From positions 128,526,001 through 128,590,000 of the forward strand of contig OZ024741.1 in NCBI GenBank assembly GCA_964016885.1: a DNA stretch of 64,000 nucleotides. The letters are read 5' to 3'. Source of the DNA: Eledone cirrhosa (taxonomy: Eukaryota). Below the pieces are notes generated by a model. That model worked only from the letters and a program-made list of their open reading frames with translations, searched no databases and was not told the origin of the DNA. Below are positions 2,380-54,672 of the stretch, piece by piece; the first letter of the stretch is position 1; each line of letters begins with the position of its first letter. The position numbers and the translations under genes are program-made.

Positions 2380-2420
2380 CCTTCTGAAGACGGTTAACGA
2401 GCCAGAAACGGCCGTTAGGG
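2380..2420 (+). ncRNA. Minimal type I hammerhead ribozyme (PLE-type)
   Basis: cctt-CTGAAGA-c-ggtt(aacg)agcc-a-GAAA-cggccg-TT-aggg: stems I and II pair, palindromic stem III; ~150 nt tail then (TA)n. Confidence 0.65.
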
Positions 2421-2915: not shown

Positions 2916-4890
2916 ACATACGAAATAAGTGAGGATACCCTTGAGACTGTGATAGGAAAACTCCAAGATAAGAAAACACCAGGAAGAGACATGATTGTCG
3001 GCTACTGGTACAAAAAACTAATATTCTATCGGAGGTATCTTACTGACCTCTACCAACAAGTTCTTAAGGGAGATACACTTATACCAGAATGGTTGACATT
3101 AGCACAAACATTATTGGTCCCCAAGAACACAGACAACCACTTGGCAAAAAACTACAGACACATTGCAGGCCAGAACCTGATGTATAAGATGTATACAGCC
3201 TGCCTGAACCTATTCCTCCAAGATCACTGTGAAAATAATAACATCATCACAGATAAACAAGCAGCTGGAAAGAAAAGGGTTTGGGGATGTGCTGAACAAC
3301 TCCTAATCAACAAAACTGCGATGTCGGAGGTGCGACAACTTAGGAGGAATATGACGACAGTCTGGCTGGACTACAGGAAAGCTTTCGATTCTGTTCCCCA
3401 CTCTTGCATGATAGAGGCCCTCCAACTTGCTAAAGTCCCAGACATTATTGTCAGAGCCATAGAGAGACTGTCTTCTTCTTGGGCTACTATCCTAAAGTTA
3501 AAAACAGAGAAGGAGGACTCTATTTTCACTGATAAAATAAAATATCGCAGGGGTATATTTCAGGGGGACAGTCTCTTTGTGATATTATTCATCCTGTCAT
3601 TAAACCCCTTGTGATTTCATCCCAAGAAATGTGGAGGATACATCATTGGCTCACAGGAGGACAGAAATACGAACCTAACCCACAATTTCTTTGTGGATGA
3701 TCTGAAACTCTATGCCAAGAACATGGATGGGATGAAGAAAAATATTATATAAATGATCTGGTTACAATGTTCTCAAAGGATATAGAGATGGAGTTTGGCC
3801 AAGATAAATGCTTATATATGACTGTAAAGCGGGGAAAAACAACAACCCAATCTAGCAACATTGTCATCAATGGCCTAACTGTTTCACCGATATCTGATGA
3901 GGACTGCTACAGATATCTGGGGATAGATGAGAACATATCCTATAATGGTATCTGTAATAAAGAACGCGTAACCAGGGAATACTACACCCGATTAAGAAAG
4001 AGCTGGTCATCGGAACTCTCTGCGCAAAACAAAACAGTGGCTCACAATGTGTTTGCTGTGCCTGTCCTAACACCAACGTTTGGAATACTCAATTGGACGA
4101 TAGACGAAATCCGAGCAGTTGATGTTAGAACTCGAAAAATACTAAACAACACCAGAAACTTCCACATCAACAGTGACATAGACCGCCTTTACTTGAAACG
4201 TAAGCAGAGAGGCAGAGGCCTAACATCAGTCCAGACAACATTTGAATGTCGCATCATATCCCTCCGACAACATCTACAAACCTCGAAGCAAGTCTATCAG
4301 CATGAAATAGATAAGATCATGAGAGTTGGGAAGGAACTCCTCGAGAGATATTACCTGTGTGATAATAAAAAAACTCACACCCAGGGAAGTCGCTCAGCAG
4401 TATCGCAGTGAATCCATGGATGAAAAACTGCATGCTTAGCAGCAAAAAATCATGCATGGATATGTTGCCAGGAAGCTCCAGAGTGAGAGTAATATAGATA
4501 AGGAAAGTAGTCTATATTGGACCAACAACTGCTATATTGGCTCCCACTTTGAAGGATAAGCTTTTGAAATCCAAGAGCAGGAAATCAACACGAAATACCT
4601 GATTCACAAAAGAGATAGGGATGCAGGCAAAACACCTAGATGTGCAGACAAACAAGTGCAGACTCTGCAGAACTAACATCGAGGATATCACCCATGTCAT
4701 CAGCAGCTGTCCAAAGATGTCATCGCGGTACTATCTACCTATGAGGCATGATGTAGTGGCCAAAACACAGTACAATGCAATCCGTAGAAAAGATAACCCC
4801 GATAATAAACACATTAAAAGCTACAACAATGTGGAAGACACCCATGTACATAATATGAAAGAGTACTGGTGGAATGTTCCACACAACTAG
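2916..4890 (+). pseudogene. Truncated, frameshifted R4/Dong-like (RLE-clade) non-LTR retrotransposon ORF
   Basis: RT motifs [31 protein letters not shown] (~3690), YRYLGI, GRGL; then CCHC knuckle CRLC..HVISSC and RHD motif. Split over ORFs 2949-3614, 3767-4411 and 4621-4890; starts right after (CATA)n. Confidence 0.9.
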
Positions 4891-12872: not shown

Positions 12873-13553
12873 CATACTACATGTGTTTGCTTGCGCATCC
12901 GTTCGTGCACCACCCTCTACAACACAGGAACACTTCTACGCCCATGCACATACAGCTGCACATGCTTGCACAATCACACGGTGGCGGCCGGGGCCCGCTC
13001 GCGTGTGCAAACGTTTGACCTCACACGCATACACAACCAGCCTACACTACTAATACTCACTAACTCCCCACTATTATGGCCACAACACCTGTAGCTAACA
13101 CCCCACCGCCTCTACGTACGAGCGCCCGTGTGCGCGGACTTGCGTGTGTGTGTGCGTGTGTGTGTGCTCGAGCCCGTGCATGTGTCTGCACTTACGCATG
13201 CAGCCACACATCGTTCGCCAGCAACCACACATCTCGGCCTAACACACATGCTGGCATATATATATATATATAAATAAATATATATCTATCTATATATATA
13301 TATATATAATCATATATATATATCTATATATATAATTTTTCGTTTCTGAATTTGTTTAGCAAGATTCTTTATCTGAAATCGTGTGTTGAAACCGATATTG
13401 TTATACTTTGGGAGGGTCATGTTGCCAATAAGAAACACACGCACCAGTTGCTTTCACTTCAATTTAATTTAATATATATTTATAAATTTACAAATTTATA
13501 AATTTCTGGTTGGTTGGTTGGTTCCACAACCAGATAGTTGTTTATATATATAT

Positions 13554-13598
13554 AGTCATAGTTCTTTCGTCACACACTCTGTGACCTCTTCAGTGACT
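13554..13598 (-). ncRNA. Minimal hammerhead ribozyme (family F, left arm)
   Basis: Reverse complement of 13767-13811. Confidence 0.7.
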
Positions 13599-13766
13599 GG
13601 GGATTTCTTTCTTCGTTTCTGTGCCTTTCCTTTCTTCTATCCTACGCCATTTTGTTTGTGTGTGGGTTGCGTGCTCAGTTTGCGCATGCGCCACATCCGG
13701 GTGTCTGTGTGTGTTTGTGTTCATTTTTCTATTTTAACGAAGAAAGAAACGAAGAAAGAAATCCCC

Positions 13767-13811
13767 AGTCACTGAAGAGGTCACAGAGTGTGTGACGAAA
13801 GAACTATGACT
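13767..13811 (+). ncRNA. Minimal hammerhead ribozyme (family F)
   Basis: agtca-CTGAAGA-g-gtcaca(gagtg)tgtgac-GAAA-gaac-TA-tgact. Confidence 0.7.
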
Positions 13812-13970
13812 ATATATATATAAACAACTATCTGGTTGTGGAACCAACCAACCAACCAGAAATTTATAAATTTGTAAATTTATAAATATATATTAAATTA
13901 AATTGAAGTGAAAGCAACTGGTGCGTGTGTTTCTTATTGGCAACATGACCCTCCCAAAGTATAACAATAT

Positions 13971-17322: not shown

Positions 17323-17373
17323 GGCTTCTACAGGATTAGAACTGTTTCATTCGAAGGAAATCATCAGGAAGCC
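17323..17373 (-). ncRNA. Type I hammerhead ribozyme, family B (intact core)
   Basis: Minus strand ggcttc-CTGATGA-t-ttc(cttc)gaa-t-GAAA-cag(ttctaatc)ctg-TA-gaagcc; element spans ~17240-17375. Confidence 0.85.
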
Positions 17374-18356: not shown

Positions 18357-18426
<70 letters not shown>

Positions 18427-18427
<1 letters not shown>

Positions 18428-18623
18428 CGAAGGAAGTGTGGTAATGAACCAGATGGACCATAACGCACCAGAGTACTCAATACTTAGGGTAGTAGAGTGG
18501 GTAATAGGAAAATGTTTCACCCCGACGGCAGAGCTCAAGCCGTTTCGACGGCTATTTCTGGACTCTGCGTCCAGAAATAGCCGTCGAAACGGCTTGAGCT
18601 CTGCCGTCGGGGTTAAACATTTT

Positions 18624-18627
<4 letters not shown>
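18427..18627. mobile_element. Palindromic PLE-like element, family A
   Basis: Near-perfect inverted arms 18505-18562 and 18569-18627 plus a ~78 nt tail, inside (TA)n; contains GAAA-cggc(ttgagctct)gccg-TC. Confidence 0.85.
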
Positions 18628-18684
<57 letters not shown>

Positions 18685-21624: not shown

Positions 21625-21835
21625 CGTTTCTGAATTTGTTTAGCAAGATTCTTTATCTGAAATCGTGTGTTGAAACCGATATTGTTATACTTTGGGAGGG
21701 TCATGTTGCCAATAAGAAACACACGCACCAGTTGCTTTCACTTCAATTTATTATAATAAATTTATAATAAATTTAAAGATTTATAAATTTCTGGTTGGTT
21801 GGTTGGTTCCACAACCAGATAGTTGTTTATATATT

Positions 21836-21878
21836 GTCATAGTTCTTTCGTCACACACTCTGTGACCTCTTCAGTGAC
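21836..21878 (-). ncRNA. Minimal hammerhead ribozyme in PLE 3' UTR
   Basis: Minus strand gtca-CTGAAGA-ggtcacagagtgtgtgac-GAAA-gaac-TA-tgac, ~200 nt after the GIY-YIG stop. Confidence 0.75.
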
Positions 21879-22079
21879 TAGGGATTCCTTTCTTTGTTTC
21901 TGTGCCTCTCCTTTGTTCTGTCCTACGCCATTTTGTTTCCGTGTGTGTGTTGTGTGCTCAGTCTGCGCATGCGCCACATCCGGGTGTCTGTGTGTGTTTA
22001 TGTTCATTTATTTATTTGTTTATTTACATGTTACTGGTTGGTTGTTTGTTCTATGTGCGTGTGTGTTTTCATTTTGTCC

Positions 22080-22397
22080 TTAATTGTAAGTTGTGATGTT
22101 GCTGTTCCACTCATATTTTCTATTTAATTTTGGTTGTAATTCTTTTATGTTTATTGCCTCTGTAATTTGTCTAAACATTGCGTCTTTTCTGTGTGTAGAT
22201 TCTATTTTTATTTCTATGTTCTCTAATTTACCCTTGTGTTCTATTTTAGCATGTTGGTAGAGTACAGATAATTCTTTACTATCTTGAAGGTCTCGCCAGT
22301 GTTCATTTATCCGTTCCCCTACACTACGAGCTGTCTCACCTATGTACACTATATTTTTGTCTCTACATTGTCCTTCAGTACATCTTATGCTATACAC
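22080..22397 (-). pseudogene. PLE GIY-YIG endonuclease domain fragment
   Basis: YSIRC..C...YIGETARSVGERINEH..HAKIEH..EAINIKELQPKLNR matches the PLE GIY-YIG signature. Confidence 0.9.
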
Positions 22398-22539
22398 TAC
22401 ATTTCTAGTTTTACAGTTAATATGGGGGCTTATTTTACAGGTTATACATTTCTTATCTATACATGAGCGTCTTTGAAAAGGGTATGTCTTGCTAACAAGT
22501 GTTTTTACGGAGGTACCTATATATATATATATATATATA

Positions 22540-29821: not shown

Positions 29822-30042
29822 GCACGTGGGTCGTCCTGTTTGGGTCGTTCCTCCTCCCCCCCCTGCTCCTCCTTCTCCTCCTACTCCTCCTCCCTCTATT
29901 CCTTTACACTTTCATGTTTACCAATGCCAGTAGATCTGCACCCCAACTCTATCTATATGCTTTCTTTTTACTTCTCTTCTGCCTCCCTCTCTCGTTTATC
30001 CAGTTTATATATATATATATAATATATACATACATATATATA

Positions 30043-30191
30043 GGTGGACCATAACGCACCAGAGTACTCAATACTTTGGGTAGTAGAGTGGGTAATAGGA
30101 CAATGTTCAAGACCCCAACGGCAGAGGTCAAGCCGTTTCGACGGCTCCAAACGGTTTCAGCTCTGCCGTCGGGGTCTTGAACATTTTCCTA
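30043..30191. mobile_element. Palindromic family A element
   Basis: Same arm/tail layout as 18427, in (TA)n. Confidence 0.8.
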
Positions 30192-30244
30192 TATATATAT
30201 AGATATATATAGAGAGAGAGACAGAGACAGATAGAGATAGAGAG

Positions 30245-30411: not shown

Positions 30412-30467
<56 letters not shown>

Positions 30468-30474
30468 CATACAT

Positions 30475-30711
30475 AGTAAGGAAGTAAGGTACTCAATACA
30501 TAGCAGAGTATAGATATTTAATATAGAAATGGCTTTTACAAGACTAGAACTGTTTCATTCGGGAGAAATCATCAGGAAGCCCTGATAATTTCTCCCGAAT
30601 GAAACGGCTTGAGCTCTGCCATCGGGGTCTTGACTCTTTTCCTATTACCCACTCCACTACCCAAAGTATCGAGTACTCTGGTGCGTTATGGTCCACCTGG
30701 TTCTTTACATA

Positions 30712-30712
<1 letters not shown>
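30475..30712. mobile_element. Family B (minus) / family A (plus) chimeric element
   Basis: Family B hammerhead at 30531-30581 on minus, then ctgataatttctcccgaatGAAACggcttgagctctgcc running into family A arm and tail. Confidence 0.8.
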
Positions 30713-30750
<38 letters not shown>

Positions 30751-30772
30751 CATATATATATGTATATATATG

Positions 30773-30886
<114 letters not shown>

Positions 30887-30986
30887 TGTGTATATATATA
30901 TACATATACACATATAAAGAGAGGCTCATACACACACATACACATATTAAGAGAGGCTCACACATATACACATATAAAGAGAGGCT

Positions 30987-31040
<54 letters not shown>

Positions 31041-31067
31041 CAGTATTTATATATATATATATACACA

Positions 31068-31117
<50 letters not shown>

Positions 31118-31136
31118 TATATATATAATATATATA

Positions 31137-31229
<93 letters not shown>

Positions 31230-31443
31230 TAAAGGTATAGAAATATATATATATATATATAACCGACGGTCTTCCTCTTCTGTCGTTATCCCTATCACCG
31301 TTTATCCACTGCTATTCTACAATCCTTTCTTTCTTTCTCTCACTCTTTCCCTCCTTCTGACTTCTTTCTCTCTTTTTCTCTACATTTATCTATCTACTAC
31401 CATTTCCCCGCCACCAACACCACCAATATTACCTCTCTATCTA

Positions 31444-36300: not shown

Positions 36301-36534
36301 AAAGTTTATCCCGGGTTCAAATGGGGGTAAACCACAGTAAGTAAGGTACTCAATACATAGCAGAGTATGAATATTTAATTTTAAAATGTCTTCTACATGA
36401 CTAAACCTGTTTCATTCGGGAGAAATCATCAGGAAGCCCTGACAAATCATCAGGGCGTCCTGATGATTTCTCCCGAATGAAACAGTTCTAGTCTCCTGTA
36501 GAAGCCATTTCTATATTAAATATTCATACTCTGC

Positions 36535-44164: not shown

Positions 44165-44195
<31 letters not shown>

Positions 44196-44352
44196 CGAAG
44201 GAGGTGTGGTAAGGAACCAGATGGACCATAACTGCTAGTCCAGAAATAAGCCGTCGATACGGCTTGAGCTCTGCCGTCGGGCTTAAACATTTTCCTATAT
44301 ATATATATATATATTGTTATACTTTGGGAGGGTCATGTTGCCAATATATATC

Positions 44353-44430
<78 letters not shown>

Positions 44431-44475
44431 GGCTTCTGCGGGACTAGAACTGTTTCATTCGGGAGAAATCATCAG

Positions 44476-44526
44476 GGCTTCCTGATGATTTCTCCCGAAT
44501 GAAATAGTTCTAGTCCTGTAGAAGCC
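44476..44526 (+). ncRNA. Hammerhead ribozyme, family B, in palindrome 44428-44610
   Basis: ggcttc-CTGATGA-tttctcccgaat-GAAA-tag..ctg-TA-gaagcc. Confidence 0.8.
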
Positions 44527-44674
44527 ATTTCTATATTAAATATTTATACTCTGCTATGTATTGAGTACCTTACTTACTGTGGTTACCCCCGATTGAAATC
44601 GGGATAAATTTATATGTATATATATATATATACAAAATATTAACAAATGGAAACTATATTTATAAAACCATATT

Positions 44675-44740
44675 TATTTCATTATACATATTTCAAGGGC
44701 CACCAAGGCAAACTATGGTGCGCTTTCATCAGATAAAATA
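44675..44740 (-). ncRNA. Hammerhead ribozyme, family C, in palindrome 44630-44915
   Basis: Minus strand tattttat-CTGATGA-aagcgcacca..tggtggccctt-GAAA-tatgta-TA-atgaaata. Confidence 0.75.
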
Positions 44741-44911
44741 TAGTTTGTCTTGGTGGCCCTTGAAATATGTATAATGAAATAAATATGGTTTTATAAATAT
44801 AGTTTCCATTTGTTAATATATTGTATATTTACTCCAATAATTTTTTGAGTGCTTTATATCAGTTATAAAAATATTTTGCTTGTTGTATCCCAACAAATTA
44901 AATATAACCTC

Positions 44912-47676: not shown

Positions 47677-47719
<43 letters not shown>

Positions 47720-47723
<4 letters not shown>

Positions 47724-47910
47724 AACGAGTAGGACCCCGACGGCTGAGCTCAAGCCGTTTCACACGTTTCTGAGTCCAGAATTAGCCGTCGAAACGGCTT
47801 GAGCTCAGCCGTCGGGGTCCTACTCGTTCCTATTACCCACTCTACTACCCTAAGTATTGAGTACTTTGGTGCGTTATGGTCCACCTGGTTCCTTACCACA
47901 TTCCCTTCGT
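47720..47910. mobile_element. Palindromic family A element (tail on the right)
   Basis: Arms aggaacgagtaggaccccgacggc / gccgtcggggtcctactcgttcct; tail ends ccttcgtt(TA)n. Confidence 0.85.
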
Positions 47911-47926
47911 TATATATATAATATAT

Positions 47927-49435: not shown

Positions 49436-49499
<64 letters not shown>

Positions 49500-49644
49500 A
49501 ACAAGTAAGACTCCTGGGGTCTTACTTGTTCCTATTACCCACTCTACTACTCTAAGTATTGAGTACTTTGGTGCGTTATGGTCCACCTGGTTCCTTACCA
49601 CATTTCCTTCGTTATATATATATATATTTAATATATATGTATAT

Positions 49645-49818
49645 ATATTTAATATAGAACTGTTTCATTCGGGAGAAATCATCAGGGCTTCCTGATGATT
49701 TCTCCCGAATAAAACAGTTCTAGTGCTGTAGAAGCCATTTCTATTTTAAATATTTATTCTCTGCTTTGTATTGAGTACCTTACTTGCTGTGGTTACCTCC
49801 GATTGAAACCTGGATAAA

Positions 49819-49820
<2 letters not shown>
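49645..49820. mobile_element. Palindromic family B element, core mutated GAAA to AAAA
   Basis: Hammerhead at 49686-49736; further B copies at 38284, 47615, 50620-50812, 52797 and 56645-56810. Confidence 0.8.
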
Positions 49821-49869
<49 letters not shown>

Positions 49870-50015
49870 CGAAAGAAATGTGGTAAGGAACCAGGTGGAC
49901 CATAACGCACCAAATTACTCAATACTTAGGGTAGTAGAGTGGGTAATAGGAACCAGTAAGACCCCGACGGCTGAGCTCAATCCGTTTCGACGGCTAATTC
50001 TGAATTACTGGTTCC

Positions 50016-50047
<32 letters not shown>

Positions 50048-51074: not shown

Positions 51075-51141
51075 TATTTTATCTGATGAAAACACGTTAT
51101 TGCATGATGATATTTGTTTTTGAAATGCGCATAATAAAATA
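51075..51141 (+). ncRNA. Hammerhead ribozyme, family C variant (intact)
   Basis: tattttat-CTGATGA-aaaca...tgttttt-GAAA-tgcgca-TA-ataaaata: perfect 8 bp stem I, palindromic stem III. Confidence 0.85.
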
Positions 51142-51929: not shown

Positions 51930-52374
51930 TAAAGTTATATTTAAAATTGTTGGGTTACAACTAGTAAATATTTATAACTGATATAAAAGCACTCGACAAA
52001 TACTTGGAGTATATTTACAATATTAAATAAATGGAAAACTATATTTATAAAACCATATTTATTTCATTATATATATTTCGGGGATATCATATTAACAATA
52101 TGCTATGCCTTCATCAGACAAAATACAATATAAACAGTTTTATAGATAAATATATTCGACATACCGTAATAAACATCAACTTCATTTGAAGAGGTTTAAA
52201 ACCTCTTCAAATGAAATTGATGTTTATTACGGTATGTCGAATATATTTATCTATAAAACTGTTTATATTGTATTTTGTCTGATGAAGGCATAGCATATTG
52301 TTAATATGATATCCCCGAAATATATATAATGAAATAAATATGGTTTTATAAATATAGTTTTCCATTTATTTAAT

Positions 52375-52385
<11 letters not shown>
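51930..52385. mobile_element. Palindromic family C element with two hammerheads
   Basis: ~180 bp near-perfect arms centred at ~52199; cores at 52060-52125 (-) and 52271-52336 (+). Confidence 0.85.
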
Positions 52386-52433
<48 letters not shown>

Positions 52434-54611: not shown

Positions 54612-54672
54612 TATTTTATCTGATGAAAGCGTACCAAAGTCTTGGTACCCTTGAAATATATATAATAGAATA
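54612..54672 (+). ncRNA. Hammerhead ribozyme, family C
   Basis: tattttat-CTGATGA-aagcgtacca(aagtct)tggtaccctt-GAAA-tatata-TA-atagaata. Confidence 0.8.

What the first reader, a model, noticed from the sequence alone, without database searches (positions are those of the whole stretch)
30531..30712. Chimeric ribozyme: family B 5' half fused to family A 3' half exactly at GAAAC
Seen: ctgataatttctcccgaat (B) + GAAAC + ggcttgagctctgcc..gggg (A), followed by the A tail. The junction is the catalytic-core sequence both families share. Inference: template switching or annealing by microhomology at the ribozyme core, a route for shuffling ribozyme modules.
Basis: partly seen in the sequence, partly recalled or inferred. 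Interest (0 to 1): 0.7.

Follow-up and report, generated by a model that had tools for sequence, protein, structure and literature searches.

The report
Two transposon ends fused at GAAAC
The junction is real, but it is likely an ordinary accident: one Penelope-like transposon fragment probably landed beside another in a TA repeat and was joined to it through five shared bases, leaving a single hybrid hammerhead look-alike that is predicted not to fold or cut.

Summary
Observation confirmed. Family B sequence runs to GAAAC (30601-30605) and family A sequence starts there, with exactly five shared bases; the join is unique in the window. The context changes its meaning. The B '5' half' is the short arm of a 25-bp foldback whose long arm lies on the minus strand, so it lacks its own helix I strand. 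The hybrid has A at core position 8, a mismatch in helix III and a predicted hammerhead-fold share of 1e-9 or less. A and B look like Penelope-like pseudo-LTR fragments in (TA)n. All 16 other two-armed A or B elements have one tail-bearing arm; this locus has two, one per family, which points to two insertions fused together. B and A often sit side by side (5 of 9 B loci), and a 5-nt microhomology join also occurs away from the core (49.65 kb). Most likely an A cDNA attached its end to a resident B arm; a later deletion is the main rival. No sign of spread or of module shuffling. Genome and reads were not available. Interest 0.2.

The parts
30426..30475 (.). Left (TA)n-type target tract
30479..30581 (-). 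Family B long (tail-bearing) arm; tail ends about 35 nt short of the longest B copies
   Evidence: 95% identical over 103 nt to the B copy at 44476; end points; alignment
30531..30581 (-). Type I hammerhead-shaped motif of B inside the long arm (intact core, GUA site between 30537 and 30536, first pair of helix I mismatched)
   Evidence: 12 of 13 model pairs possible; structure model counted on 8 B copies
30552..30605 (.). Foldback hairpin, 25 bp with one mismatch and a 4-nt loop (30577-30580); same apex as the B elements at 44.47 and 49.68 kb
30581..30605 (+). Family B short arm: core 5' half (CTGATAA, position 8 changed to A) and helix II; lacks the native helix I 5' strand
   Evidence: 24 of 25 identical to the long arm and to three other B arms; starts at -20 like the short arms at 44 and 49 kb
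30601..30605 (+). 5-nt microhomology GAAAC (hammerhead G12-A13-A14-A15.1-C15.2)
30601..30709 (+). Family A long (tail-bearing) arm: helix III (30604-30622, mismatch at 15.2/16.2), predicted cleavage position 30623/30624, tail ending about 17 nt short of full-length copies
   Evidence: 90% identical over 108 columns to the A copy at 47.8 kb
30713..31261 (.). Right (TA)n tract
30042..30192 (.). Separate neighbouring family A foldback element; closest A copy (91%) but a different variant block, so not the source of the focal arm

Best explanation
The locus is a B foldback and a tail-bearing A arm joined through five shared bases inside one (TA)n tract, and it likely arose when an A copy inserted just right of a resident B element and attached its unfinished cDNA end to the GAAAC in B's short arm. 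Shown by sequence: the three segments, the 5-nt overlap, the standard B apex, two tails, the damaged core. Inferred: (1) A and B are Penelope-like pseudo-LTR fragments moved by a GIY-YIG/RT protein; (2) B inserted first as an ordinary head-to-head foldback; (3) an A RNA was reverse-transcribed from a nick in the TA tract to the right, starting in its tail; (4) synthesis stopped at GAAAC, where other A arms also end; (5) the cDNA end annealed to GAAAC in B's short arm and the rest of that arm (roughly 25-55 nt by comparison with other short arms) was lost; (6) the two G-to-A changes came later. The product is predicted to be catalytically dead and shows no sign of having been copied.
For: One-tail rule: 11 of 11 other two-armed A elements and 5 of 5 two-armed B elements carry the tail on one arm only; 10 of 11 A short arms stop at the same site (+42), the other at +29. 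The focal A arm runs to +105 and the B arm to +77, so both are primary arms. Both arms of an ordinary element share the same variant block (read by eye), so mixed templates in one event are not the norm. B and A are often neighbours: 5 of 9 other B loci lie within 130 nt of an A; null means 0.9 (uniform) and 1.5 (TA tracts), P 0.0005 and 0.003. The B apex is identical to that at 44 and 49 kb. Five of 23 other A arms begin within -3 to +1 of the core G, one exactly at it. A lone tail-bearing A arm attached to another repeat exists at 42.2 kb. The same head-to-head hammerhead-plus-tail layout belongs to a family that follows a GIY-YIG frame in this window. A 5' junction formed by microhomology annealing is described for a Penelope insertion (PMC3846280, passages); one-sided tails and inverted 5'-truncated copies are standard (PMC8557442, passages).
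Against: The order of events cannot be read from the sequence: private changes are similar on both sides (B 4 in about 128 nt, A about 3 in 108 nt after setting aside ragged ends and one variable block). No target-site duplication can be seen in (TA)n. The excess of A ends at the core is only about twice a uniform share (hand estimate, not significant), and such ends could also come from later deletions at hairpin tips. The 130-nt adjacency cut-off was chosen after seeing the data. No autonomous parent of A or B is in the window. A later deletion gives the same final sequence.
Confidence: 0.5

Rival explanations
1. B and A inserted separately as complete foldbacks in the same TA tract, and a later repair deletion of roughly 120-250 bp joined the GAAAC of B's short arm to the GAAAC of A's long arm.
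For: Explains two tails and the standard B apex equally well. The starting layout is common (5 of 9; 49.5-50.0 kb is A-B-A). A 21-nt deletion at a 5-nt microhomology is seen in the B short arm at 49.65 kb. Microhomology-mediated deletions disable many Penelope copies (PMC3846280, passages).
Against: Needs a further event and a larger loss. With 13 shared words of 5 nt or more and long TA runs available, GAAAC is one option among several, whereas A arms do end there naturally.
Confidence: 0.26
2. One insertion event used two RNAs: reverse transcriptase switched from an A RNA to a B RNA at GAAAC, or an A cDNA annealed to the self-primed extension of a B cDNA.
For: Exact microhomology at the core; A ends occur there; a Penelope protein nicks and extends both target strands in vitro and is predicted to be a dimer (PMC11167929, main text); multi-segment apexes at 36.4, 47.8, 50.7 and 56.7 kb show repeated jumps at arm junctions.
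Against: Second arms never carry a tail in 16 of 16 other elements, yet the A arm does. Arms of ordinary elements match in variant. A single hybrid cDNA that then self-primed would give an A-type left arm and the native B helix I strand on the plus strand; neither is seen.
Confidence: 0.15
3. The junction is a library or assembly chimera formed at a short overlap next to a hairpin and long TA runs.
For: Single copy, palindrome and microsatellites on both sides; complex Penelope structures trouble assemblies (PMC8557442, passage).
Against: The hairpin arms differ at one base and share their apex with other genomic copies, so it is not a perfect read foldback; both halves carry private changes.
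Confidence: 0.05
4. The B-A hybrid is a member of a third, recombinant family with many copies.
For: Helix I could be partly rebuilt by chance: 8 of 10 positions pair in register between the apex and the A strand (2% of shuffles do as well).
Against: One copy in the window. Its partner arm is pure B, whereas arms of one element match. The pairing strand comes from the antisense apex, not from a B RNA end.
Confidence: 0.04

Closest known systems
Penelope-like element pseudo-LTR insertions with an inverted 5'-truncated copy and a one-sided tail (PMC8557442, PMC3846280, PMC11167929)
   Same: Head-to-head inverted arms with a palindrome at the junction, a tail on one arm only, (TA)n or AT-rich targets, hammerhead motif in the repeat, microhomology at 5' junctions and in deletions.
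   Different: No RT or GIY-YIG frame is attached to A or B in the window; this locus joins arms of two families and has two tails.
Hammerhead motifs of PLE pseudo-LTRs (Cervera and De la Pena 2014, PMC4209133)
   Same: Type I layout; mostly single truncated copies; pairs on opposite strands within 100-700 bp are reported there.
   Different: B has a full 4-bp helix III and a U-U mismatch at the base of helix II (as in axolotl HHR_Amex2, PMC7229834) rather than the minimal form; the hybrid lacks a matched helix I and the C3-G8 pair.
Non-LTR retrozymes (PMC7229834; bioRxiv 10.64898/2026.07.22.740005)
   Same: Short non-coding animal repeats with type I hammerheads, linked to PLE pseudo-LTRs.
   Different: Retrozymes are head-to-tail tandem arrays; A and B occur as dispersed head-to-head pairs or single arms.
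Microhomology-mediated 5' attachment of LINE-1 and Alu cDNAs (Zingler 2005, seen only as cited in PMC3846280) and chimeric retrocopies such as U6-L1 (recalled, no call)
   Same: A cDNA end joined to another sequence through a few shared bases.
   Different: Those chimeras are recurrent classes with many loci; here there is one locus.

Membership tests
Functional type I hammerhead ribozyme (the hybrid) | Core C3-U4-G5-A6-N7-G8-A9 with a C3-G8 pair (or a compensating U3-A8) | tested here: not met
   30582-30588 reads CTGATAA: C3 with A8. Breaking this pair abolishes cleavage in a PLE hammerhead (PMC11167929); U3-A8 is the tolerated variant (PMC4209133).
Functional type I hammerhead ribozyme (the hybrid) | G12-A13-A14 and an NUH site with A15.1-U16.1 | tested here: met
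   GAAA at 30601-30604, TC at 30622-30623.
Functional type I hammerhead ribozyme (the hybrid) | Helix III paired next to the core | tested here: not met
   C15.2 faces A16.2; three further pairs form.
Functional type I hammerhead ribozyme (the hybrid) | Continuous helix I of 4 bp or more at the cleavage site | tested here: not met
   2 bp, a 2x2 mismatch, then 6 bp; not reported by the structure-aware scan that found 11 other motifs.
Functional type I hammerhead ribozyme (the hybrid) | Hammerhead fold accessible in the RNA | tested here: not met
   Predicted share 1e-9 without and 9e-30 with the foldback arm, against 1e-3 to 2e-2 for 4 of 5 B copies and 2e-8 for the fifth. Energy model only, no tertiary contacts.
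Functional type I hammerhead ribozyme (the hybrid) | Self-cleavage in vitro | not testable with these tools
   Needs a transcription assay.
Type I hammerhead (family B itself) | Intact core with three helices | tested here: met
   Copies at 17323, 36390 and 44476 pass the scan; 92% of model cells pair versus 32-48% for slid controls.
Type I hammerhead (family B itself) | Covariation in the helices or an Rfam hammerhead match | tested here: inconclusive
   One pair with a two-sided change; 54 of 500 shuffles pair as well. No Rfam hammerhead match.
Type I hammerhead (family A itself) | CUGANGA half upstream of GAAA | tested here: inconclusive
   Absent from 14 of 14 other A core sites, but all arms are 5'-truncated at -20 or later, so a full-length parent may have it.
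Penelope-like element | RT plus GIY-YIG frame between pseudo-LTRs | not testable with these tools
   None attached to A or B in the window; the host genome could not be searched. A sister family (D) does follow a GIY-YIG frame.
Penelope-like element | Inverted 5'-truncated copy at the 5' end and a tail on one side | tested here: met
   16 of 16 other two-armed A and B elements.
Penelope-like element | AT-rich or (TA)n target | tested here: met
   Focal flanks and most other A and B copies abut (TA)n.
Non-LTR retrozyme | Head-to-tail tandem units each with a hammerhead | tested here: not met
   No tandem A or B units among the copies listed.

The most novel reading that the evidence does not exclude
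Penelope-like elements that pile into the same TA tracts join recurrently at the invariant GAAAC, so hammerhead halves from different families are swapped genome-wide and some hybrids with a workable helix I spread as new families; family A, which lacks the CUGAUGA half in every other copy here, might even borrow it from B.
Probability: 0.08. Interest if true: 0.6.

Novelty: new member of a known kind. Interest (0 to 1): 0.2.

Why it matters
As it stands, little: one fused pair of transposon fragments of a kind already described for Penelope-like elements. It would matter if a genome-wide count showed inter-family joins concentrated at GAAAC and copied onward, because that would offer a DNA-level route to the high hammerhead variability noted in PLEs (PMC4209133). 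The surrounding copies are the more useful resource: their fixed apexes and end points record steps of PLE insertion (self-priming, second-end joining) that are still unresolved.

Tried and rejected
Rfam: 0 matches at gathering score in the whole window; E-value scans of the focal locus and of an intact B copy returned hairpin families only, so Rfam says nothing either way. One search's hybrid fold used pair coordinates shifted by one; those rows were dropped and redone (its B rows are valid). A large composite reading (30042 A arms + captured DNA + focal A arm as one insertion) was rejected because the focal arm carries a variant block like the 42 kb copy, not like the 30042 arms. A permuted hammerhead in A (core downstream of the cleavage site) was looked for by eye and not seen. 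Dating the halves by private changes gave no difference. A single hybrid cDNA followed by self-priming was rejected because it predicts an A-type left arm. Searches for a published inter-family hammerhead join in PLEs gave no such report in listings or in the passages read; the library lacks most subscription papers, the Terminon paper (PMC5850863) was not held, and no supplements were read, so prior description is not excluded.

Full report
1. Observation. The window shows B-type sequence up to 30605 and A-type sequence from 30601, sharing exactly GAAAC. Among 32 core-like sites listed on both strands (about 5 of them chance matches), this is the only one with a B left side and an A right side; a 25-nt junction probe matches exactly once in the window. 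A random B-A join would share five or more bases 0.5% of the time.

2. Anatomy. Read left to right: a (TA)n tract, a B arm on the minus strand with its tail (30479-30581), a 4-nt loop, a short B arm on the plus strand (30581-30605), an A arm with its tail (30601-30709), and another (TA)n tract. The two B arms make a 25-bp hairpin with one mismatch. The apex is the same as in the B elements at 44.47 and 49.68 kb, and the short arm starts at the same base as theirs.

3. What A and B are. Twelve other A loci and nine other B loci were mapped. Most are head-to-head pairs in (TA)n. In 11 of 11 two-armed A elements and 5 of 5 two-armed B elements only one arm carries the tail; 10 of 11 A short arms stop at the same site. 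This is the layout described for Penelope-like elements: an inverted 5'-truncated copy, a tail on one side and a liking for TA repeats (PMC8557442, passages; PMC3846280, passages; PMC11167929, parts 1-2 of 4). A sister family in the window with the same layout follows a GIY-YIG frame whose one longer relative found is an octopus protein. That A and B are PLE-derived is an inference from layout; no parent frame was seen. B folds as a type I hammerhead with a GUA site; pairing beats slid controls (92% versus 32-48%) but covariation is not significant, and Rfam recognises none of these motifs. A shows only the 3' half: 14 of 14 other A core sites have no CTGA-N-GA within 70 nt upstream.

4. Is the hybrid a ribozyme? 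It fails four of five sequence and folding tests. Position 8 is A while position 3 is C; breaking that pair abolishes cleavage in a PLE hammerhead. Helix III has a mismatch next to the core. Helix I is 2 bp, a 2x2 loop and 6 bp, built from the antisense apex. The hammerhead-shaped fold has a predicted share of 1e-9 without the left arm and 9e-30 with it, against 1e-3 to 2e-2 for four of five B copies. Before the two G-to-A changes the foldback and the unmatched helix I would already have been there (inference; not computed). In its favour, 8 of 10 helix I positions pair in register, which 2% of shuffles match.

5. How it formed. The deciding feature is two tails, one per family, where all 16 other two-armed elements have one. 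That points to the primary arms of two insertions. The needed neighbourhood is common: 5 of 9 other B loci lie within 130 nt of an A (null means 0.9 and 1.5; P 0.0005 and 0.003; cut-off chosen after looking). I favour an A insertion beside a resident B whose cDNA stopped at GAAAC and annealed to the same word in B's short arm (0.5): it needs one event and a small loss, other A arms end there (5 of 23 within -3 to +1, one exactly; a weak excess), and microhomology 5' attachment is described for Penelope. A later deletion between two intact neighbours gives the same sequence (0.26); a 21-nt deletion at a 5-nt microhomology in the B arm at 49.65 kb shows such joins occur away from the core. A switch between two RNAs in one event (0.15) fits a protein that extends both target strands but not the tail on the second arm. 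Private changes do not separate the ages of the halves.

6. Is the core special? B and A share 13 words of 5 nt or more in the same orientation, and an 11-nt block in the tails of other copies. No reciprocal join and no second copy are in the window, and the partner arm is pure B, which argues against a recombinant family (0.04). An artefact (0.05) cannot be excluded without reads.

7. Literature. Six searches gave no report of inter-family hammerhead joins in PLEs in the listings or the passages read. Seen: PMC11167929 parts 1-2 of 4; PMC4209133 parts 1-2 of 4; PMC8557442, PMC3846280 and PMC7229834 passages; bioRxiv 10.64898/2026.07.22.740005 part 1 of 5 and passages. PMC5850863 was not held; no supplements were read. 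Hammerhead numbering and the U6-L1 comparison rest on my own knowledge.

8. Verdict. A real, single, microhomology-joined fusion of two Penelope-like fragments; a new instance of known junction types, predicted inactive, with no evidence of module shuffling. Interest 0.2. The novel reading, recurrent core-guided swapping that seeds new families, has probability about 0.08 and would deserve 0.6. The host genome and reads, which would settle it, were not available; viral and metagenome collections stayed unchecked.

Noticed in passing
window 23116/23130 and 49507/49516 (also about 42290): Four A arms in two elements begin at the base predicted to follow hammerhead cleavage (+23), and the 42 kb arm within 2 nt of it, while 0 of 16 B arms begin at B's cleavage site. 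This may record cleaved A RNA used as template in vivo; PMC11167929 found no such ends for its element. Only two or three independent events.
   Followed up: partly
window 30576-30581, 36433-36438, 44476-44481, 49686-49691, 17368-17373: Every long arm of the GGCTTC-type B group (5 of 5) starts exactly at the first base of helix I, and three elements share an identical apex in which the tail-bearing arm keeps that strand. This fits self-priming of the first cDNA at a fixed RNA boundary; in Drosophila virilis Penelope an intron ends at the same position (PMC4209133).
   Followed up: partly
all A elements, e.g. window 18425-18628, 47719-47913: No A arm extends 5' of position -20; the hairpin tip at 18.56 kb may be the natural loop of a long helix II that triggers self-priming before the CUGANGA half is copied.
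   Followed up: partly
window 21660-22517 (-) and 13340-13970: Penelope-like remnant: GIY-YIG frame (Pfam E 1.4e-4; 56% identical to an Octopus bimaculoides protein) followed by a repeat with a minimal hammerhead at 21836-21878. The same repeat forms a head-to-head pair at 13.4-14.0 kb, with solo tail pieces at 41.5 and 44.3 kb.
   Followed up: partly
window 44625-44831, 51075-51141, 51944-52386, 54612-54672: A third AT-rich hammerhead family (C) with an 8-bp helix I and variable long helix II, also in head-to-head pairs.
   Followed up: no
window 44190-44830 and 49497-50016: Chains of different hammerhead-bearing fragments in one TA-rich stretch (A, D tail, B, C; and A, B, A), suggesting that existing insertions attract new ones.
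   Followed up: partly
window 36433-36465: B element with a double foldback at its apex (four short segments), a sign of repeated jumps during joining.
   Followed up: no
window 2380-2420 (+): An isolated type I hammerhead-shaped motif just upstream of a broken non-LTR reverse transcriptase frame (2985-3614, Pfam RVT_1).
   Followed up: no
window 30572-30581 with 30624-30633: The antisense apex of B pairs with the A strand after the cleavage site at 8 of 10 positions (about 1-2% of shuffles do as well); probably chance, since it was noticed after the fact.
   Followed up: yes
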